Part shown: positions 2,980-34,022 of the stretch, one piece after another
Numbering within the stretch: the stretch's first letter is position 1
Layout: each line of letters begins with the position of its first letter
Sequence record: OR204652.1
Reading direction: 5' to 3' (one strand)
DNA: 40,444 nt
Origin: Escherichia phage pO111
Position numbers and translations under genes: made by a program
The notes under the pieces: model-generated
What the model saw: the letters and a program-made list of their open reading frames with translations, nothing else
What the model was told of the DNA's origin: nothing
Databases searched by the model: none

Positions 2980-3429
2980 TTACTTGGTTTCCTGCTTACG
3001 TTGCAGTTCACGAATAGTATCCTGTAACGCACGAATCCACGCATCACCCTTCTGGGTCACTGCGATAATACGTTTAGCATCTCGGTCGTCAAGTTCGGCT
3101 CGACCATCAGGCTCGAATCCACACTTACCATCGGAGGTTCCGGTAGTCTTGATTCTGACGCGCAACCGCTTATTGTCGCTACGCAAATCAGAAATAATCC
3201 TATCAGTGCTCCCTTCCAGCGCGGCAAGGTCTGCTTGATACTTAGCCGATATCTCATTGATTGCTCTTTGAGTGCTCGCCGTAGCCTCAACTCTCTTAAC
3301 GTACTCATTCTGTACCTCCTGTTTCCACTTGGCGTCCATTGAGTCAGCCCCAAGTTGCCATCCCCATCCGAATAGCATCCCAGCGAGAACCCAAGGGACT
3401 GTTCTCTTAACGATTGCAAGTAATACCAT
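2980..3429 (-). CDS. 18.5: Rz-like i-spanin (gp18.5)
   Basis: ORF track 2980..3477 trimmed to the internal ATG (MVLLAIVKRTVPWVLAGMLFG...) that aligns with the T7 gp18.5 N-terminus. Confidence 0.85.
   Translation of the reverse strand: MVLLAIVKRTVPWVLAGMLFGWGWQLGADSMDAKWKQEVQNEYVKRVEATASTQRAINEISAKYQADLAALEGSTDRIISDLRSDNKRLRVRIKTTGTSDGKCGFEPDGRAELDDRDAKRIIAVTQKGDAWIRALQDTIRELQRKQETK
3057..3308 (-). CDS. 18.7: Rz1-like o-spanin lipoprotein (gp18.7), embedded in the +1 frame of Rz
   Basis: MSTLRELRLRRALKEQSMRY...ICVATISGCASES lipobox; 83 aa from the internal ATG of ORF 3057..3419. Confidence 0.85.
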   Translation of the reverse strand: MSTLRELRLRRALKEQSMRYRLSIKQTLPRWKGALIGLFLICVATISGCASESRLPEPPMVSVDSSLMVEPNLTTEMLNVLSQ

Positions 3430-3811
3430 AAGTTTCCTCCAACAATCTCGCGTGAGTTTCCCTAGCCCAAGAAACAACTTCCTCTAGATTAGTGGTAGGC
3501 GCATAAGTTTCCTTACGACCTCCCATGCGAATGTCACCATAGTAGACCATACAGCCTTTCCTCTTTGCGAATCTAGAGTATACACCCTTTGGTAGTTCCC
3601 TACTACTAATCGTGTTAGCCCTGTTAGCACCTCTAGGTACTGCCCTCAGGTTAGATAACGCATTATCCAGTGTGTCACCATTTATATGATCGATGACGTA
3701 CCCTTCTGGGATTGGACCATTGGCCTCTTCCCAAATCAGGCGGTGTACATTGTGTACCTTACCATTTATGGTTACTCGATAGTACCCTCCACTCAGGTAT
3801 TGACCTTCCAT
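3407..3811 (-). CDS. HNH endonuclease with AP2-like DNA-binding tail (putative homing endonuclease)
   Basis: 134-aa ORF; GYVIDHINGDTLDNALSNLRAV HNH motif; ATG with GGAGA Shine-Dalgarno; sits between gene 18 and Rz and overlaps the Rz start by 23 nt. Confidence 0.8.
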   Translation of the reverse strand: MEGQYLSGGYYRVTINGKVHNVHRLIWEEANGPIPEGYVIDHINGDTLDNALSNLRAVPRGANRANTISSRELPKGVYSRFAKRKGCMVYYGDIRMGGRKETYAPTTNLEEVVSWARETHARLLEETYGITCNR

Positions 3812-3873: not shown

Positions 3874-4143
3874 TCACTGTAAAGTGTAAATATCGTCATC
3901 CGTAAGACCGTTATCACCGACTTTCTCTTTGTACTCTTCAAGAGCACCAGCAAGTCCACCCAAGATGTGAACATCCGGTTGCAGCTTGCCAATCTGGAAC
4001 TTGTGGCGGTCTAACAGTTTGTTGATGGCGTTGTAGAGTTGTGGAGAACGACGCTCAGGGTCCGAAAGGTCCGCAAGCATACGCTGAGCCATAGCCGTGT
4101 CCAACATCTCTAAGAACGTAATAAGGCTCTTATCTTTTTCCAT
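3874..4143 (-). CDS. 18: Terminase small subunit
   Basis: 89 aa, near-identical to recalled T7 gp18 (MEKDKSLITFLEMLDTAMAQR...). Confidence 0.95.
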   Translation of the reverse strand: MEKDKSLITFLEMLDTAMAQRMLADLSDPERRSPQLYNAINKLLDRHKFQIGKLQPDVHILGGLAGALEEYKEKVGDNGLTDDDIYTLQ

Positions 4144-6056: not shown

Positions 6057-9000
6057 TTTCCGACGCTCCTTCAAGTTAACACCGTTGGCCTCATAAATCT
6101 TAACCACAAGCTGTTGAGTAAGAGGGTCGTTAGGCACTAACTCTTTGGTAGAGTTCATTAAGCCAGTCATGAAGTCCTGCTCGGTTGCCTTGTTAGGTGA
6201 GTTAACCACACCAGCAGCATTCATTAGGGAGGCCCCAACGTTAGCCACAAAGCCAGCGGAAGGCATCTGCTCCAGAAGGTTCGAACCCATAGCCCCCATT
6301 ACCTCTCTAGAGGTGTACGGTTTGTTTGGGTCACGTTCCTTCATGGTGTCCTTAGGTAGAATCGTAGAGCGAGCCATCTTGGAGGACTCGAACCCTAAAA
6401 CACCGCCAACTAGGTCAGCCATAGCCAAAGGAGCACCCAATTGAGAACTACGAGACAACGAAGCGTGGGCAATCATGGTTGGGTCCAGTGCTCTCTCCAA
6501 GTACTCCCTACGTTTCTCCTTAGGCATCCCATATGCTTTGACGTGTGCAGCCATAGCGTAGTAACCCCCAGCGAGACCCATAGAGATGATACCAGTCAAC
6601 GCAGCGTCAATCGCTCGGTTGTTCTTGTATCCATCATAGAAGGTTCGCAGGAACTTAGAGTTAAGGGACTTGATAGTGAAAGACTTAAACTGCATAACCA
6701 TATTACCCAATGCTCCGAACGCATGGGAATCCTGTAAGGACACCTTATGCGGACGTAGCATTGCCTCATCAGCTACCTTGTCAGCAAGTCGCCATAAGTT
6801 CATAGCCCGTGGGTCCATAGAGAACGCTTGCTTGTCCTTGACGGTAAACTTCCCGTCCTCACCACGTACCATACGTTCCTTGATGAGAGACTTGATGCCA
6901 GCCATCTGCTCAGGAGTTACGGAGGCGCCACGAAGGAATCCTTCTTTCTCCCAGCGGGTAGTCTTACCTGTTAGGGTGGCACTAATAACGTCCCCTAGCA
7001 TACCTTGACGTGCCGCATCCAGAAGGTAGTTAGTGGTCCCGTTCAGCATCTTAGTCCACGGAGAGCGAGCAGCCAGTTCCTGTGTGGAATACTTCAAGGT
7101 CCCTACGATGTTCGCCACAGCAGGTCCAGTATCAGTTGCTTCCCTTAGGCGCTGCACAATGTCAGCACGTTTAGGGCGAATCAACTGGTCCACCTCCTTC
7201 CCGAACAGAGACGCATGGAGTTCCTTGAGTTCCTTAGCGGAAACTGGTTTAGACTTGTAGAGTGTATCACGCAGAATTGGGATACCGTGGCCTAGAGCAC
7301 GCACGTTGCCAGTGGCAATCATCCCAGCAATCTCCGTAAGGTTCTGAGCACCCATGTAGGCGTTCTTAGCGAAGAACCCTAGGTCATTGATGGCACGCAG
7401 CGAGGTTTCCCACACAGTGTCCTGATTACGCCGAGCACGACCAGTAAGAATCTTAACGGTATCCATAAGAGCGTGAACCTCGCCAGTCTTCTTACCGTCT
7501 CCCTCAGCTTTCGCCTTGAGAGCCAAAATCTCATCCTTAAGTTCCTTAGTGGTTTTACCAGTAGACCCCATGATGGCGATGTCACCGTTGATACGGCGGT
7601 CATACGCTGGCATGATGCGGAACATATCGAAGTCCCTTAGGTCGTTCACCGAGAATTGCTGTCCGTCTGGCATAGTGATGGATAGGTCCGAATCAAACAA
7701 GTTACGTGCCTCAAGGAATGAGTTGTTCTCAATACCTACTAAGCCCTCAATGTTCTCTTCAATGATGGAACTGTTGGTGAACTGGTCTGAATGGGAGATA
7801 CCATAAGCCTTATCCATAGCGTACTTCTCTACCATCTCAGGCGTTACTTCCTTCACCCCGTGTAATTCCTTAAGCATCTCATCGACTCTGGCCTTGACCT
7901 CGGGTCTGGAGACGTAGCTGTTCATCCACGAACGAGCAATACCTTCCTGTAAACCTTCGGCACCGTAGCGTTGAATCATCAGTGCTTTAGCATGACGGTC
8001 GTAAACGTGAGGAACGTAAGTCCCTTTGTGGCGACTCTCAGGGAAAATACTAACAGCCTTCGTATTACCGAAGATTGCAGGATTCTCCATAAGTTCACGC
8101 TTGGTGTCAAAGTGACGCTTAATAATGTCCATGACTATTCTCTCAGACGGAGTAAGTACCTTCTGCAACTCTGGGCGCTCAATAGCTAGTGCCGCTCTAC
8201 GATAGATAGTGTAGCGAGTTTCTTCGCGGGACATCTTAGCACCGCCAGTAGAGAACTCAGGGTCTTTCATAGCGTCAGACATAGCTTTGTACAGGTCATT
8301 ATAGGTACGTTGGTCAGTACCATGAAGTCTCTCATGGATGTCGGAAGCTGTTGCACCGAACTTACCTGAGGCACCAGACTGCATACCAGTCGGGGAGCGA
8401 ACAAGGTCGATAGCCACTCTACGGATGTCAGTATCGTCAGACCCCAAGGTCTTCAAGCCAATCTCAGTGAACCCAGCAAGTTTGATTCCTCGTGCAGCCT
8501 TCTCAGGGTCAACCTCGGAGAACTCTTGTAGGGTCTTAGGGTTGATTGGGTTGCTTGCACTTAGAATGGAGCCATCGTGTAACACCACAGCGCCCCTCTC
8601 GGTCGGTAAGTCCTCATAAGGAACACCATTATGTTCACCTGCAAACTTCATGTCCTCAGTGTTCATACGAGAGAGGTCCGTAGAGTTGGCGTTGCGTGCG
8701 GTCTCACGGGCTTCCATTCGCATCATAGGACCAATGAACTCATTGTCGAACTCAGCTTCTGGTTTACTGCGTTTCAGTCCAGCAGCTACAGCGTCACTGA
8801 TTGCAGACATACCAGCGCCAAACACAAAGCCACCTAAGGCCGCCCCAGCGTAGTCTGCGTCACCACCAGCTACGGAGGTACGGAGACCTTCGGATGCAAC
8901 GTTCAGAGCAGCACTTTCTGCACCAACTACAAGAGCCTTATTGATTAACTTAAAGCCCTTACCAGTGACACCGACCATAGGGACATAGCTAAGAGGGTCC

Positions 9001-23925: not shown

Positions 23926-24526
23926 CTTTCTGTATTCTCCTATTACTAGGAGTGTCGGACTATATCATCAGCCTTTGAGTTGACTGTCTGGCGCTTCGGG
24001 TAACGAGGGAATCTCACCCTCGGCCCTACTCCTTTCGGATAGTCTCTACGCCTTCCACTCTCTAATCCACTTACAAGCGGCAGAGAACGTTACACCAAAC
24101 TTCTCACCTAAGTGTGCTCCTGTACATCCAGTCTCCAACCAGTATTCCTTCGCGGACTCTTTACGGTCAGCGTAGCGTTCCCTGTTTGTCTTGACTGTAT
24201 GCTCAGAACCTTCTAGTAACTGGAGGTGCTCTACGTTACAGCACGCCCTGTTCCTACACTTGTGGTCTACTTCATACCCTTCTGGTATATCTCCGTAGTG
24301 TTCCTTCCAGACTGTCCTGTGATACATCTCTAGGACACCGTTCGTCTTCTTTCGGAAATAACCATCAGTATTAAGTTTGTGTGACGTAGGGATGATACAA
24401 CCACTCGCTGTGGTCGCAAGGATTAACTTCTTGCCTCTCATATATCCTCCCTATGGCTTGGCTCGGTATTGCCCTAGAAGGGTTTCACCGAGTTCACCAG
24501 ATTTAATGTGCACAATGAGATAGTTT
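23926..24526 (-). mobile_element. Group I self-splicing intron in DNA polymerase gene 5, carrying an HNH homing-endonuclease ORF
   Basis: 601 nt between the gp5 exons; exon 1 ends in U; GUGCAC near the intron 5' end can pair with exon end GUGCAU (U-G wobble); R-like AGAGACUA and S-like GAUAUAGUCC elements; CUCCUA-GUAA-UAGGAG hairpin; intron ends in G. Confidence 0.8.
24046..24441 (-). CDS. Intron-encoded HNH homing endonuclease
   Basis: 131 aa ORF inside the intron; YEVDHKCRNRACCNVEHL HNH-type motif; ATG with GGGAGGA Shine-Dalgarno; stop codon overlaps the R-like element. Confidence 0.82.
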   Translation of the reverse strand: MRGKKLILATTASGCIIPTSHKLNTDGYFRKKTNGVLEMYHRTVWKEHYGDIPEGYEVDHKCRNRACCNVEHLQLLEGSEHTVKTNRERYADRKESAKEYWLETGCTGAHLGEKFGVTFSAACKWIREWKA

Positions 24527-26485
24527 ATGCACCCATGCCATGTACGCAAAGTCCCCATCCCAGCCATGCTTCAAGCCTTTCTCTACGAGCATCTCTTCGG
24601 TCTTGATAATCCACAGTTTGCAGATGAGAGCACCAGCAGATTGTAATAGGGTATTCAAGGCAGCGTGAGGACTACGGACGTGTACCTTACGACCATCCAG
24701 ACCTTTAATCCAGCGGCGTTTCCACTTGACTCGCTGTTCGCCAGCTACCCACTGAGAGGACTCAACAAGTGTCTGTTGGATAGACTCACGGAGTGCTGCA
24801 ATCGCTGGGGTGTTCTCAAGGAATTTCTTCTTGAGTTCCTTACCGCGCTCTTTACCAGCACCAACAATCTGTCCAATCTTCTCATCACCAGCACCATAGA
24901 GGAACCCATAGATAAACGTCTTAGCGTTATCACGGGTAGGCAATTCGGCAGCTATCTGGTTCTTAGTGTGGATGTCGCCATTGAGAATCTCGTGAGCGTA
25001 CTCACCGTTGTCAAAGCGAGCCATGAAGTGGGCCAAGCATCGCAACTCCAGACCGGAGGCGTCTATACCAGCCTGAACCCAAGGCTTACCTGTAAGTCCA
25101 TCTAGGTGATGTTCAGCGCCAAAAGCAGCGCGGCACTGCTCACCATAAGGAGAACGGACACCGGGTATCTGTGCGAGGTTAGGGAAAGCGTGAGTAGCGC
25201 GCCCAGTAACAGCGCCGTTGGGATTAACAGAACCATGAATTTTACCATCCTCAGCAACGTAACGAAGCCACGCCTTGTCTCCCTCAGCTGACTGTCCGAT
25301 TCTCTTCTGAATCATCAAGTATTCTTTAATGAGGTCGATTGCAGCTTGCTTCTCAGGGTCATCTACACGTACTCCTTCGAGTACCTCATCGTCCACCACA
25401 GGCGCACCCTTATCGGTGTACTTCGTGGGGACCCACCCAGCCTCTTGAAGTTTCTTCTGAATGTGGTCACGGGACGAAGGGTTAAACACTACGTGCTCTA
25501 CCGGAGTATATGGGGCACCAGCAACGTACTCGCGGGTATCCAGTTCGCAAGGCTCACGGCCTTCTCGTTGTGCCTTGTTCTTAGGCTTCTTAAAGATACC
25601 ACCAACTTTAGGTGTCTTAATGCGAGGGTATTTAGGCAGTGGTTTACCTGTCCGAGGATGGCAGAACATCTCAGTGCCACCTTTAGGCTGATACCACGAG
25701 CCGAACGTTTCGGTCAGCTTACGCAGCAACTCTGAGCGGCGAGCAGCCAACTCTACGTACAACTCCTCGATTGCTTTCGTGTCAAACGGGAATCCATTAC
25801 GCTCTTGCTTAGCGAGTAGCCATGCAGCGCGATGTTCAACATCAACGGCCTCAAGGGATTCTGACCAGAACGTAGTGTAGCCTACGTCCGTAAAGTCAAT
25901 CTCAGGAGGGAAGTAATGTTTATCAGAGAGTAGCTTCTCAAGGAGAGCCTTAGTGACCACAACGTCCTGAACGTTATAGGCCATCATCTCTTCGTTGAAG
26001 TTCCACCACTCCATTCCGTCAACGTATTCTTCACCTTGCTCTTCAAGCATACGCTTAAAGTCATCCTTGTATTCACCCTTCATCTCACCTAAGCGATAGC
26101 CCCACGCCTCCAAAGCGTGAGACCCAAAGCGTTTACCGGGCAACTTACCGGAACGCAGAAGACCCATATCGGTGTCTTTAAGGTTAGAGTGAATCAATCG
26201 TGACAGCACAAGGGTGTCGATACAGTTCTCACGGGGAAGGTGGAACTCACGGTTCAATTGTAGCTTTGCCAGTTTGGTCAATGCGGGAACGTCATACTTG
26301 TGACCGTTGTGGAACACGATAAGACCGCCTCGTGCAACCTCGGCTTCCAGCGCATCCAGATACGCACCGAAGTCACTCGGACGGTAGCTTACGTACTCAG
26401 CGGTGGAGTAGTCATAGATAACCCCGCAGTGGAACTTAGTGACGCTCTCTAAGAGGGCGTTAGCTTCGATGTCAGAAACGATCAT
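24527..26485 (-). CDS. 5: DNA polymerase gene 5, exon 1 (653 codons)
   Basis: Near-identical to recalled T7 gp5 residues 1-653; the unspliced ORF runs 7 extra codons (KLSHCAH*) into the intron. Confidence 0.9.
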
Positions 26486-32321: not shown

Positions 32322-32344
32322 GTCTCCTTTAGTGAGTCGTATTA
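32322..32344 (-). promoter_or_regulatory. T7-type phage RNAP promoter phi1.6
   Basis: Reverse complement TAATACGACTCACTAAAGGAGAC. Confidence 0.85.
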
Positions 32345-32431
32345 AGCATGACCATCTGGCATATCGTCATCGCTACAGTGGAGCGCAAGGCATCCTATGA
32401 TGATGATTAGTAATGGCATTGCGTACATCAT
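32342..32431 (-). CDS. 1.5: gp1.5 (29 aa)
   Basis: Manual translation MMYAMPLLIIIIGCLALHCSDDDMPDGHA between phi1.5 and phi1.6. Confidence 0.6.
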   Translation of the reverse strand: MMYAMPLLIIIIGCLALHCSDDDMPDGHA

Positions 32432-32438
32432 GGTATGT

Positions 32439-32461
32439 ACCTCCTTTAGTGAGTCGTATTA
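32439..32461 (-). promoter_or_regulatory. T7-type phage RNAP promoter phi1.5
   Basis: Reverse complement TAATACGACTCACTAAAGGAGGT. Confidence 0.85.
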
Positions 32462-32492
32462 AACGCAGAAAGGCCCACCCTAAGGTGAGCCA
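32462..32492 (-). terminator. Early-region intrinsic terminator TE (for host RNAP)
   Basis: mRNA GGCUCACC-UUAG-GGUGGGCC hairpin followed by UUUCUGCGUUU; matches the recalled T7 TE. Confidence 0.85.
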
Positions 32493-32497
32493 GTTAG

Positions 32498-32995
32498 TTA
32501 TTGTAGCTCAGCTAGTAGTTTGTCGCGGGTCGCTACAGCCTCGTTAAGTGACTTGTGATATGAGACATATCGTCTGCCGAACTTCCTAACGGAGACGGTG
32601 TATAGGTTTCTATCATGTCTCTTATTGATGTGCTTAAGCCCCAGCTTGTTGGTGCAGAATGCTCCTTTGTTCTGATTGTTCTCAGCGCTTGTGACCACTC
32701 TGAGATTCTCTATGAGGTTATTCTGCTTATTTCTATCGATATGGTCTATCTGTAAACCGTCTGGTATAGGGCCGTTAGCAAGTTCCCACACTACTCTGTG
32801 AACCATTAAGTAGTGCGCCTTTCCTTCCACCCTGACACATAGAGTCCAATACCCAGTCTTCTTTAGATAGCCAACGGGCTTCCCATTAATACGCGAGAGG
32901 CCACTAGGAGACTCCCTGTCAATCTTAAATCTTTTCGCTACGATTTCCCTCAACTCCACGGAAGCAGGTGAAGGAAGGATGTCTGAGACTTCCAC
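32498..32995 (-). CDS. HNH endonuclease (free-standing, putative homing endonuclease) at the gene 1.4 position
   Basis: 165 aa; LQIDHIDRNKQNNLIENLRVVTSAENNQNKG HNH motif; GTG start with GGAGG Shine-Dalgarno; overlaps the last 71 nt of the ligase gene. Confidence 0.8.
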   Translation of the reverse strand: MEVSDILPSPASVELREIVAKRFKIDRESPSGLSRINGKPVGYLKKTGYWTLCVRVEGKAHYLMVHRVVWELANGPIPDGLQIDHIDRNKQNNLIENLRVVTSAENNQNKGAFCTNKLGLKHINKRHDRNLYTVSVRKFGRRYVSYHKSLNEAVATRDKLLAELQ

Positions 32996-33941
32996 TTTCT
33001 GTTTCCTCCATATAATTTACTTGGCAAGACCATCCGTTATAGTAGTCCTCCCCGTGCTCCTTAACGTTGGCGGTAAATTCGTCCATTAAGGCGCGAGAGA
33101 TATTGTTAGCGTCTACAATACGCCCTGTCTCAAGAAGCACCGTGAACCCTATTACCTTACCTTCGTTGGCTAGACCTTTCGTACCCCAGTTTACACCTTG
33201 GATGATACCGTCTGCTTCGTTCTCTGGCTTGAGTTTCCACCAGCCGGACTTCTTACCGCGCTTGTAGATGCACATCGGGTCTTTCACAATGAGACCCTCA
33301 TGCCCTTCTTCACGCTTCTTCTCGTACAGTTGCTGTAGTTCTACCATGTCGTAAATCTCGTAAGACTCAGCCGCTTGCCATTCGATTTCAGGGAAGTATT
33401 CCTGTAGCAGAGGCAGCATGTTCTTAACGTGTTCCTGCATGAGCAGCGTCATGACATCACAGTCTTCTCCAGACTCTACGATGTGCAGCGGTAGGATAGC
33501 ATACAGTTTGACACTCAGACGTTTGGTGTCCAACGCGAACTCAACCTTGGACCCCTTGAGTGGTGGCACACCGCCAACGTCGAACTCAAAGTTCTTCTTG
33601 TTGAGCCACTTGGTGCGCAGAAGACCGGAGCCAGTGTTGAAGTCTACACCTTTGACCATCAGTTCACCATCGAGCATGAAGCCGTCAGGGTAGAAGCATC
33701 GGTCATCACGAAGGAGGCGTTGCCAGCGAGAGTCAAAACCGTTCAAATGCTCAAGTGCCGGAATCGTTTTAGAAACACGAGAGAGCCAGCAACTGTTAGC
33801 AGTGTTGTCTACGCAGATGTTCCCACGTACACCATCGTACTTACAATCGACAATTAGGTATCCCGCATTGTCTAAGGCCTTCTTCACAGCGGATTCAACA
33901 AAAGACACAGCTTTAAATGGGATGGTCTTAATGTTCATCAT
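32925..33941 (-). CDS. 1.3: ATP-dependent DNA ligase
   Basis: 338 aa with the adenylation motif KYDGVRG; N-terminus MMNIKT as in T7 gp1.3; shorter than the 359 aa recalled for T7. Confidence 0.93.
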   Translation of the reverse strand: MMNIKTIPFKAVSFVESAVKKALDNAGYLIVDCKYDGVRGNICVDNTANSCWLSRVSKTIPALEHLNGFDSRWQRLLRDDRCFYPDGFMLDGELMVKGVDFNTGSGLLRTKWLNKKNFEFDVGGVPPLKGSKVEFALDTKRLSVKLYAILPLHIVESGEDCDVMTLLMQEHVKNMLPLLQEYFPEIEWQAAESYEIYDMVELQQLYEKKREEGHEGLIVKDPMCIYKRGKKSGWWKLKPENEADGIIQGVNWGTKGLANEGKVIGFTVLLETGRIVDANNISRALMDEFTANVKEHGEDYYNGWSCQVNYMEETESGSLRHPSFTCFRGVEGNRSEKI

Positions 33942-33999: not shown

Positions 34000-34022
34000 T
34001 GTCCCTATACTGAGTCGTATTA
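34000..34022 (-). promoter_or_regulatory. T7-type phage RNAP promoter phi1.3 (variant)
   Basis: Reverse complement TAATACGACTCAGTATAGGGACA. Confidence 0.8.

What the first reader, a model, noticed from the sequence alone, without database searches (positions are those of the whole stretch)
32498..32995. HNH endonuclease with GTG start overlapping the ligase 3' end, replacing gene 1.4 upstream of TE
A 165-aa HNH ORF (IDHIDRNKQNNLIENLRVV) starts at a GTG preceded by GGAGG, 71 nt inside the 3' end of the ligase gene, and ends just before the TE hairpin. phi1.5 directly abuts TE, so no gene 1.4 is present. The ligase C-terminus is also divergent and shorter (338 versus 359 aa in T7 as recalled). 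Together this looks like an endonuclease insertion that remodelled the 3' end of the ligase gene.
Basis: partly seen in the sequence, partly recalled or inferred. Interest (0 to 1): 0.6.

Follow-up and report, generated by a model that had tools for sequence, protein, structure and literature searches.

The report
Selfish HNH nuclease gene behind ligase
A T7-like phage carries a small mobile "homing endonuclease" gene tucked onto the end of its DNA ligase gene; the same parasite gene has sat at this site in many related phages and has been annotated since 2001 (gene 1.45 of phage phiYeO3-12), so the finding is real but ordinary.

Summary
A 165-codon ORF (32498..32995, minus strand) starts at a GTG 9 nt after GGAGG, lies 71 nt inside the ligase gene and stops 6 nt before the TE hairpin. 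It is a clear HNH nuclease (Pfam HNH_3 E=1.7e-21; I-HmuI profile E=8e-11).

It is not a new insertion. It is the positional orthologue of phiYeO3-12 gene 1.45, which has the same 71-nt overlap and the same +1 frame. Homologues sit at this site in Teseptimavirus, Teetrevirus, Berlinvirus, Przondovirus and Kayfunavirus phages; the closest is PVN09, 91% identical and annotated "putative homing endonuclease".

All 12 HNH+ loci have a start codon exactly there. Codons 24-62 are under purifying selection, and no start codon lies between codon 15 and codon 63.

Two parts of the interpretation fail. T7 gene 1.4 lies downstream of TE, and it is also absent from HNH-less 13a and T3. The short ligase comes from a T7-specific 19-aa segment, not from the nuclease.

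One part survives. The last nine ligase codons are dual-coded, carry five substitutions, and end in I instead of M.

Similarity breakpoints show the cassette moved independently of the ligase. Interest is low.

The parts
32498..32995 (-). Free-standing HNH homing endonuclease gene (gene 1.45 type), 165 codons, GTG start. Codons 1-23 are dual-coded with the ligase 3' end.
   Evidence: ORF. HNH_3 E=1.7e-21. I-HmuI (1u3e) E=6e-7 for the single sequence and 8e-11 for the profile. 91% identity to the PVN09 homing endonuclease and 44% to phiYeO3-12 gp1.45.
33005..33009 (-). Shine-Dalgarno GGAGG for the HNH ORF, 9 nt upstream of the GTG. It is encoded by ligase codons M-E-E.
   Evidence: Sequence. 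ATGGAGG(A/T) is present in all 12 HNH+ loci.
32925..32995 (-). 71-nt dual-coding overlap: ligase motif-VI region and tail in frame 0, HNH N-terminal leader in frame +1.
   Evidence: overlap of 71 nt and frame +1 in 12/12 HNH+ loci. pN/pS is about 1 in the HNH frame here, against 0.2-0.4 downstream.
32925..33941 (-). ATP-dependent DNA ligase (gene 1.3), 338 aa, with the HEG-linked tail ...FRGVEGNRSEKI*.
   Evidence: Pfam DNA_ligase_A_M and DNA_ligase_C. Alignment to T7 and 13a. Exact match to phage pO111 ligase WMM35754.1.
32462..32491 (-). Early terminator TE: hairpin 32472..32491 plus the UUUCUGCGUU tail. It starts 6 nt after the HNH stop.
   Evidence: Fold -15.6 kcal/mol. Stem and tail match the annotated TE of 13a and T7; one loop base differs.
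32441..32461 (-). T7-type promoter phi1.5, abutting TE.
   Evidence: Pattern match with 0 mismatches. Annotated homologue in 13a.
32342..32431 (-). Gene 1.5 (29 codons), downstream neighbour. phi1.6 (32324..32344) overlaps its end.
   Evidence: Sequence. Alignment to T7 and 13a gene 1.5. Promoter.
34002..34022 (-). Promoter phi1.3 (TAATACGACTCAGTATAGGGA). Together with the early host-RNAP transcripts, it should transcribe ligase plus HNH as one unit ending at TE.
   Evidence: Position matches the phi1.3 annotated in 13a and T7.

Best explanation
The ORF is a free-standing HNH homing endonuclease gene (HEG) of the phiYeO3-12 gene 1.45 type. It occupies the junction between the ligase gene (1.3) and the early terminator TE.

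Shown here:
- It has an I-HmuI-like HNH (beta-beta-alpha-metal) catalytic core.
- Translation must begin inside the ligase gene, and the only start position conserved in the family is 71 nt upstream of the ligase stop. The Shine-Dalgarno sequence and start codon are built from ligase codons (M-E-E ... D/N/S-G).
- The cassette therefore shares 71 nt with the ligase, and it dictates that the ligase ends in I or V instead of M.
- The gene is patchily present among close relatives.
- In this phage it is a recombinant: a JacobBurckhardt-type ligase 3' end joined to a PVN09-type HNH.

Inferred:
- The gene is co-transcribed with the ligase on early host-RNAP transcripts and on phi1.3 transcripts that end at TE.
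- In mixed infections the enzyme nicks or cuts the ligase-stop/TE junction of HEG-less T7-like genomes. Recombinational repair from the HEG+ genome then copies in the cassette together with the adjacent ligase tail (intronless homing with co-conversion).
- The insertion splits the target, and the recoded tail further alters it, so the carrier is immune.
- The ATG to GTG change unique to this phage most likely lowers expression rather than abolishing it.
For: Nuclease identity:
- HNH_3 E=1.7e-21.
- The profile matches I-HmuI residues 26-119 at E=8e-11, with the D-H catalytic pair aligned.
- D84, H85, N93, N97, N106 and N109 are invariant in nine homologues.

Same element at the same site:
- phiYeO3-12 gene 1.45 (7903-8376) overlaps ligase 1.3 by 71 nt.
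- The top-60 tblastn hits lie mainly at the ligase 3' end (three sit next to Rz-like lysis genes instead), and the ligase-site hits span five genera.

Start codon:
- 12/12 HNH+ loci have a start codon at -71, against 27/64 HNH- loci (Fisher p=1.3e-4, not corrected for phylogeny).
- In six of the HNH+ loci it is the last start before the conserved domain.
- Codons 24-62 have pN/pS of 0.22-0.36 against P1338, P483 and JacobB.
- The window has no start codon between codon 15 and codon 63.

Effect on the ligase:
- The last residue is I or V in 12/12 HNH+ loci, against M in 62/64 HNH- loci (p=3e-12).

Mobility:
- Only 12 of 76 ligase loci carry it.
- The closest whole-genome relative, SYGE1, lacks it, and the next, JeanTinguely, has a 44%-identical allele.
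- The window matches JacobB at 97-100% over the last 180 nt of the ligase before the overlap, but at only 50-73% over the HNH. It matches PVN09 at 67-75% and then 93-100% over the same two segments.
- Locus L032 keeps only the first 47 codons, after a deletion between GGCTGGC repeats.
Against: - No cleavage, homing or expression data exist for any gene 1.45-type protein in the literature I could search. The target site is an inference.
- The mosaic pattern could come from ordinary homologous recombination between co-infecting phages, without endonuclease activity.
- The comparison with the nearest allele (PVN09) gives pN/pS of about 1, but from only about 22 substitutions. Recent relaxation of selection cannot be excluded.
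- The ATG to GTG change could be a first step of decay.
- Gene callers in public data start this protein at codon 13 or codon 64, not codon 1. From memory, this is probably because gene callers such as Prodigal cap same-strand overlaps at 60 nt.
- The single-sequence AlphaFold model is unusable (pLDDT 39).
Confidence: 0.85

Rival explanations
1. The gene is a decaying, no longer active remnant. The HEG is fixed in this lineage, its start codon has been weakened (ATG to GTG), and it is drifting towards loss, so it does nothing today.
For: - The window is the only one of 12 HNH+ loci without ATG at the family start. The change is a cluster of three differences in 6 nt within an otherwise almost identical stretch of about 190 nt shared with JacobB.
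- pN/pS is about 1 against PVN09.
- Deletion remnants do occur in relatives (L032).
Against: - The ORF is intact over 165 codons, with all invariant catalytic residues.
- GTG preceded by GGAGG at 9 nt is a competent bacterial start.
- A near-identical 165-aa protein (P0005, also MEVSD...) occurs on other public contigs.
- The PVN09 comparison rests on too few substitutions to show relaxation.
Confidence: 0.1
2. The true start lies downstream (GTG at codon 13, TTG at codon 15 or ATG at codon 64), so the overlap with the ligase is shorter or absent, as automatic gene callers propose.
For: - The exact 153-aa (codon 13) and 102-aa (codon 64) versions are what public assemblies record.
- The PVN09 GenBank annotation uses the codon-13 GTG.
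- Residues 1-23 show no purifying selection in the HNH frame.
Against: - Codons 13 and 15 have no Shine-Dalgarno sequence, and they are not start codons in phiYeO3-12, P483, KP32, JeanTinguely or L067.
- A start at Met64 would discard codons 24-62, which are under purifying selection (pN/pS 0.22-0.36). Residues 37 onwards of that stretch also align to the N-terminal region of I-HmuI.
- The curated phiYeO3-12 and BASEL annotations use the -71 start.
Confidence: 0.12
3. The HNH protein is a domesticated phage function, for example a packaging-associated HNH or a host-DNA or defence-related nuclease, rather than a selfish homing element.
For: - HNH proteins can serve terminases in other phages (cited in PMC4913238).
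- Some authors speculate that such genes help against host defences (PMC12295037).
Against: - The gene is absent from most close relatives, including T7, 13a, T3 and the nearest genome SYGE1, so it is dispensable.
- It is nowhere near the terminase genes.
- It shows the insertion, allele-swap and deletion pattern typical of HEGs.
Confidence: 0.03

Closest known systems
phiYeO3-12 gene 1.45 (NP_052076.1, annotated 'HNH endonuclease') and its orthologues in KP32 (gp9), CLB_P1 (1.45), JeanTinguely and others
   Same: - Same site, between ligase 1.3 and phi1.5.
- Same 71-nt overlap and +1 frame.
- Same start position and Shine-Dalgarno sequence, both made of ligase codons.
- Homologous over residues 1-161 (44% identity, E=4e-28).
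   Different: - Only about 42-44% identical.
- In the phiYeO3-12, JeanTinguely and KP32 type, the canonical TE hairpin is gone. The HNH 3' end runs into phi1.5, and a small hairpin inside the HNH 5' region is annotated as a putative TE.
- In the window the T7-type TE is retained downstream of the HNH.
- The window uses GTG, not ATG.
Edwardsiella phage PVN09 putative homing endonuclease (QXV72978.1); also the alleles of Escherichia phages P1338 and P483
   Same: - 91%, 85% and 73% protein identity respectively.
- Same site.
- PVN09 and P1338 share the GVEGNR.EKI ligase tail.
- TE follows the stop.
   Different: - The flanking ligase 3' region of PVN09 is only 67-75% identical to the window, so the cassette and the ligase have different histories.
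- P483 and P1338 carry a Berlinvirus-type TE hairpin.
- PVN09 is annotated from codon 13.
I-HmuI (PDB 1u3e), the intron-encoded HNH nicking homing endonuclease of Bacillus phage SPO1
   Same: Homologous N-terminal region and HNH core (profile E=8e-11, residues 37-128 against 26-119), with the catalytic D-H pair and Asn residues aligned.
   Different: - I-HmuI is intron-encoded; this gene is free-standing.
- The C-terminal DNA-binding part is not demonstrably homologous.
- Nicking rather than double-strand cutting by the window protein is an inference only.
Free-standing HEGs of T4-like phages (Seg proteins, MobE; PMC2790892, PMC2988022)
   Same: The proposed mechanism: intronless homing between co-infecting phages, insertion between or onto the ends of conserved genes, and co-conversion of flanking markers.
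   Different: - Different nuclease lineages and target genes.
- Homing was shown experimentally for the T4 elements and has not been shown for this family.

Membership tests
HNH_3 / I-HmuI-like HNH endonucleases | HNH (beta-beta-alpha-metal) motif with a conserved D-H general-base pair and Asn residues | tested here: met
   PF13392 scores 76 bits against a cutoff of 24.8 (E=1.7e-21, residues 64-108). D84, H85, N93, N97, N106 and N109 are invariant in 9 homologues. They align to the DH...NN...NL motif of I-HmuI.
HNH_3 / I-HmuI-like HNH endonucleases | N-terminal DNA-binding region preceding the HNH core, homologous to that of I-HmuI | tested here: met
   The profile alignment covers residues 37-128 against I-HmuI 26-119, E=8e-11. 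Codons 24-62 are under purifying selection.
HNH_3 / I-HmuI-like HNH endonucleases | C-terminal sequence-specific DNA-binding module (helix-turn-helix in I-HmuI; AP2 in many phage HNH_3 proteins) | tested here: inconclusive
   - AP2 (PF00847) is hit by 1 of 9 homologues, at E=0.027 only.
- The low-confidence model shows three strands plus a helix at residues 121-164.
HNH_3 / I-HmuI-like HNH endonucleases | Site-specific DNA nicking or cleavage activity | not testable with these tools
   Needs purified protein and substrate DNA.
phiYeO3-12 gene 1.45-type HEG at the ligase 3' end | Located between gene 1.3 (ligase) and promoter phi1.5, on the same strand | tested here: met
phiYeO3-12 gene 1.45-type HEG at the ligase 3' end | Start codon 71 nt inside the ligase, frame +1, preceded by GGAGG encoded by the ligase M-E-E codons | tested here: met
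   12/12 HNH+ loci have it (ATG in 11; GTG in the window)..
phiYeO3-12 gene 1.45-type HEG at the ligase 3' end | Full-length protein homology to gp1.45 | tested here: met
   tblastn: residues 1-161, 43.6% identity, E=4e-28. Alignment.
phiYeO3-12 gene 1.45-type HEG at the ligase 3' end | Last ligase codon changed from ATG (M) to ATT, ATA or GTA (I or V), because it overlaps the conserved F/Y23 codon of the HNH | tested here: met
   I or V in 12/12 HNH+ loci, against M in 62/64 HNH- loci.
Mobile free-standing homing endonuclease gene (intronless homing) | Presence/absence polymorphism at one fixed site among closely related genomes | tested here: met
   12 of 76 loci carry it. SYGE1, 13a, T7 and T3 lack it.
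Mobile free-standing homing endonuclease gene (intronless homing) | Abrupt change of sequence relatedness at the cassette borders (gene conversion or recombination footprint) | tested here: met
   Window against JacobB: 97-100% then 50-73%. Window against PVN09: 67-75% then 93-100%. The switch occurs at about 32995-32900 and again at TE.
Mobile free-standing homing endonuclease gene (intronless homing) | Endonuclease cuts the HEG-less allele near the insertion site, with super-Mendelian inheritance in crosses | not testable with these tools
   No experimental report was found for this family in the searchable library.
   - T7 gene 1.4 (7608-7763) lies downstream of TE (7588), whereas the HNH lies upstream of TE.
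- 13a and T3 lack both gene 1.4 and the HNH.
- Many HNH- loci have TE followed directly by phi1.5.

The most novel reading that the evidence does not exclude
The parasite has measurably reshaped its host gene. The HEG's ribosome-binding site, start codon and first 23 codons are written inside the ligase motif-VI region and tail. HEG carriage then constrains or alters the ligase in three ways:
- An obligatory start codon at the D/N/S-G codons.
- P to K, S or E in the spacer, in 7/12 HNH+ loci against 0/64 HNH- loci.
- A terminal M to I or V change and, in this sub-lineage, five tail substitutions, including loss of a usually conserved acidic residue.

On this reading the window's unique three-changes-in-6-nt conversion of ATG to GTG, which keeps the ligase frame, would be an adaptive attenuation of endonuclease expression.
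Probability: 0.25. Interest if true: 0.35.

Novelty: new member of a known kind. Interest (0 to 1): 0.15.

Why it matters
Mostly for annotation and housekeeping.

- Gene callers truncate this gene or miss it. Public versions start at codon 13 or codon 64, and the P1338 record has no CDS there at all. From memory, the reason is probably that the 71-nt same-strand overlap exceeds the usual 60-nt limit of callers such as Prodigal.
- The comparative evidence here fixes the start for the whole gene 1.45 family.
- The locus is a compact example of an HEG life cycle: invasion, allele swapping between genera, and deletion remnants. It also shows dual coding between a selfish gene and the conserved end of a host enzyme.
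- It is a caveat for phylogenies or engineering that use the ligase-TE region of T7-like phages.
- It opens no long-standing question.

Tried and rejected
- Gene 1.4 replacement: rejected from the T7, 13a and T3 annotations.
- Ligase shortening caused by the insertion: rejected. The 19-aa indel is T7-specific and unrelated to HNH status.
- Ligase-HNH fusion by programmed frameshift: considered. The HNH frame is +1 and I saw no recognisable slippery site at the ligase stop. An independent Shine-Dalgarno sequence and start codon are conserved, so I did not pursue it.
- Intrinsic-terminator scan: it did not call TE, because the T-tract is interrupted. I relied on the fold and on sequence identity to annotated TE instead.
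- Single-sequence AlphaFold2: pLDDT 39, unusable, so no fold search was run.
- AP2 identity of the C-terminal domain: inconclusive.
- Literature: searches for experimental work on gp1.45-type enzymes found none. The original phiYeO3-12 paper is not held in the library.

Full report
**What is there**

The window is a reverse-complemented T7-like (Teseptimavirus) genome. It carries fifteen T7-type promoters on the minus strand. It is 91-92% identical to phages such as SYGE1 and JeanTinguely over 25 kb. Its ligase is an exact match to Escherichia phage pO111 WMM35754.1, on a 40444-bp contig.

On the minus strand:
- The ligase ORF is 32925..33941 (338 aa).
- The reported ORF is 32498..32995 (165 aa), starting at a GTG.
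- GGAGG lies at 33009..33005, 9 nt upstream of the GTG.
- The overlap with the ligase is exactly 71 nt.
- The HNH stop (32500..32498) is followed 6 nt later by the hairpin GGCUCACC-UUAG-GGUGGGCC plus a U-rich tail. The stem and tail are identical to the TE annotated in 13a and T7; one loop base differs.
- phi1.5 (32461..32441) follows the hairpin by 10 nt. Gene 1.5, phi1.6 and gene 1.6 come next.

**What it is**

The protein matches Pfam HNH_3 at E=1.7e-21 and PHROG 99 'HNH endonuclease' at E=1.4e-38. It also matches the solved homing endonuclease I-HmuI: E=6e-7 as a single sequence, and E=8e-11 as a 9-sequence profile covering residues 37-128. D84, H85, N93, N97, N106 and N109 are invariant among nine homologues.

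A tblastn search of 50,697 phage records finds homologues in 2,282 of them. The best 60 lie mainly at the 3' end of a ligase gene; three lie next to Rz-like lysis genes instead. The ligase-site hits include:
- PVN09, 91% identical, annotated 'putative homing endonuclease'.
- P1338 (85%), P483 (73%) and JacobBurckhardt (56%).
- phiYeO3-12 gene 1.45 (44%, E=4e-28), KP32 gp9 and CLB_P1 gene 1.45.

In the RefSeq record of phiYeO3-12, gene 1.45 (7903-8376) overlaps ligase 1.3 (6933-7973) by the same 71 nt. The ORF is thus a positional orthologue of a gene annotated since that genome was published.

**The start codon**

I collected 76 ligase loci: 11 annotated records, 64 IMG/VR contigs and the window itself. 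Some phages appear twice. Twelve of these loci carry the HNH, one of them as a remnant.

- In all twelve, the HNH frame is +1 relative to the ligase and has a start codon exactly 71 nt before the ligase stop. It is ATG in eleven and GTG only in the window.
- In six of them it is the most downstream start before the conserved domain.
- The start is formed by the ligase codons for D/N/S-G, and the Shine-Dalgarno sequence by M-E-E.
- Among HNH-less loci the same position is ATG in 27 and ACG in 37. The 12/12 result has Fisher p=1.3e-4, uncorrected for phylogeny.
- Codons 24-62, just downstream of the ligase stop, show pN/pS of 0.22, 0.25 and 0.36 against P1338, P483 and JacobB. They are therefore translated.
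- The window has no ATG, GTG or TTG in frame between codon 15 and codon 63. Codons 13 and 15 lack a Shine-Dalgarno sequence.

Public gene calls use codon 13 (153 aa) or codon 64 (102 aa) instead. From memory, this is probably because gene callers such as Prodigal cap same-strand overlaps at 60 nt. Residues 1-23 evolve with pN/pS of about 1 in the HNH frame, as expected for a leader constrained by the ligase frame.

**What the insertion did and did not do to the ligase**

The length difference from T7 (338 versus 359 aa) has nothing to do with the HNH. It is a 19-aa internal segment present in T7 plus two 1-aa gaps in the middle of the protein. HNH-less 13a has 340 aa, and HNH+ P483 has 360 aa.

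What does correlate with the HNH is the ligase's last residue. It is I or V in 12/12 HNH+ loci and M in 62/64 HNH- loci (p=3e-12). The reason is that the last ligase codon overlaps the conserved F/Y23 codon of the HNH (..TTT AAG / ..TAT AAG).

In the sub-lineage of the window, PVN09, JacobB and P1338, the tail is GVEGNR(S/N/C)EKI instead of GTEDNPQEKM. Other HNH+ lineages keep GTEDNPxEK(I/V). So 'remodelling' is real but limited to the nine dual-coded tail codons.

A further association is P to K, S or E just before the start codon, in 7/12 HNH+ loci and 0/64 HNH- loci. This could reflect either shared ancestry or tuning of the spacer.

**Gene 1.4**

In T7, TE is at 7588 and gene 1.4 is at 7608-7763, so gene 1.4 lies downstream of TE. 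The HNH lies upstream of TE. 13a and T3 have TE followed directly by phi1.5, with neither gene 1.4 nor the HNH, as do many IMG/VR loci. The 'replacing gene 1.4' reading is refuted.

**Evidence of mobility**

The nearest whole-genome relative, SYGE1, lacks the gene. The next, JeanTinguely, carries a 44%-identical allele at the same site.

Sliding identity shows a mosaic:
- Over the last 180 nt of the ligase before the overlap, the window is 97-100% identical to JacobB and 67-75% identical to PVN09.
- Over the HNH it is 93-100% identical to PVN09 and 50-73% identical to JacobB.
- After TE both comparisons return to about 90-98%.

The switch occurs within a segment (-69 to +30 around the ligase stop) that all four alleles share almost unchanged.

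Locus L032 retains only the first 47 codons of a P483-type allele. The deletion joins GGCTGGC in the HNH to GGCTGGC in the 3' arm of TE.

Two HNH-less loci (L016, L017) have I-ending ligases. L017 also carries HNH+-type tail nucleotides, which is compatible with HEG loss.

Together these give the invasion, allele-exchange and degeneration pattern expected of a homing endonuclease gene. The cleavage step itself is untested.

**Architecture variants**

- In the window, PVN09, JacobB, P1338, P483 and CLB_P1, a TE-type hairpin follows the HNH. The HNH therefore belongs to the early transcription unit and to the phi1.3 unit (phi1.3 at 34002..34022).
- In phiYeO3-12, JeanTinguely and KP32, the HNH stop runs into phi1.5 and the canonical TE is missing.

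**The window's peculiarity**

The window differs from JacobB at only two adjacent positions in the roughly 190 nt upstream of the start-codon cluster. At the start codon itself it reads ACAGAAAGTGG where JacobB reads ACAAAAGATGG. That is three differences in 6 nt. They convert ligase K-D to E-S and the HNH ATG to GTG. A near-identical 165-aa protein beginning MEVSD exists on other public contigs. This could be attenuation of a potentially toxic nuclease or the first step of decay. I favour attenuation, but weakly.

**Limits**

- No biochemical or genetic work on this family was found in the searchable library.
- The single-sequence structure model is unusable.
- The C-terminal domain (residues about 120-165) looks AP2-like by pattern, but this is statistically inconclusive.

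**Verdict**

This is a genuine, correctly delimited HNH homing-endonuclease gene with a well-supported unusual start. It is an ordinary member of a known, widely annotated family at its usual site.

Noticed in passing
window 23936..24536 (-), with ORF 24046..24441 (-) and the DNA polymerase ORF 24503..26485 (-): The DNA polymerase gene stops after ...AYMAWVH (660 aa, against 704 in T7 from memory), at Pol A motif C. An Rfam Intron_gpI match covering the full model (38.4 bits, E=5.5e-8, below the gathering score of 50) spans the break. It contains a 131-aa HNH ORF (EVDHKCRNRACCNVEHL). This looks like the group I intron with an HNH endonuclease known from DNA polymerase genes of some T7-like phages (I-TslI type, from memory)..
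   Followed up: partly
window 3407..3811 (-): A third HNH ORF (134 aa, DHINGDTLDNALSNLRAV; 47% identical to residues 48-109 of the ligase-site HNH). It lies between the gene 18-like ORF (3874..4143) and the Rz-like gene 18.5 (2980..3477), overlapping the latter. It is another free-standing HEG in the late region, next to the lysis gene 18.5 and upstream of it. The HEGs described next to Rz-like genes in Kayfunavirus and Hafnia phage Ca (PMC8861465) lie downstream of the lysis gene, before the large terminase..
   Followed up: partly
L032 (IMGVR_UViG_2974609713_000001), about 3452..3600: A remnant of a P483-type ligase-site HNH. Only codons 1-47 remain. The deletion joins GGCTGGC inside the HNH to GGCTGGC in the 3' arm of the TE hairpin, removing the nuclease domain and half of TE.
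   Followed up: yes
L016 and L017 (IMG/VR Teseptimavirus contigs), ligase stop region: These two HNH-less loci have ligases ending in I rather than M. L017 also carries the HNH+-type tail nucleotides (GGAACTGAGGACAATCC...ATTTAA). This may be a footprint of precise HEG loss or of co-conversion without the HEG.
   Followed up: partly
window 32993..33003 (-): A cluster of three differences in 6 nt (ACAGAAAGTGG against ACAAAAGATGG in JacobBurckhardt), within about 190 nt upstream that otherwise differ from JacobBurckhardt at only two adjacent positions. It is equivalent to a +1/-1 compensated indel pair. It changes ligase K-D to E-S and the HNH start from ATG to GTG.
   Followed up: partly
phiYeO3-12 (L005), JeanTinguely (L010), KP32 (L008), L067: In this HNH lineage the canonical TE hairpin is missing and the HNH stop lies inside or against promoter phi1.5. 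phiYeO3-12 annotates a small hairpin inside the HNH 5' region (GGCTCCTTCGGGAGTC) as a putative TE. The same HEG family is therefore associated with two different early-terminator arrangements.
   Followed up: partly
public gene calls for this protein (cluster of P0001-P0012); PP882707.1 (P1338) and NC_028822.1 (P483): The ligase-site HNH is often mis-annotated. P1338 has no CDS there. P483 annotates only a 63-aa C-terminal fragment. CLB_P1 and PVN09 use downstream starts. Metagenome callers give 153-, 102-, 101- and 96-aa versions.
   Followed up: yes
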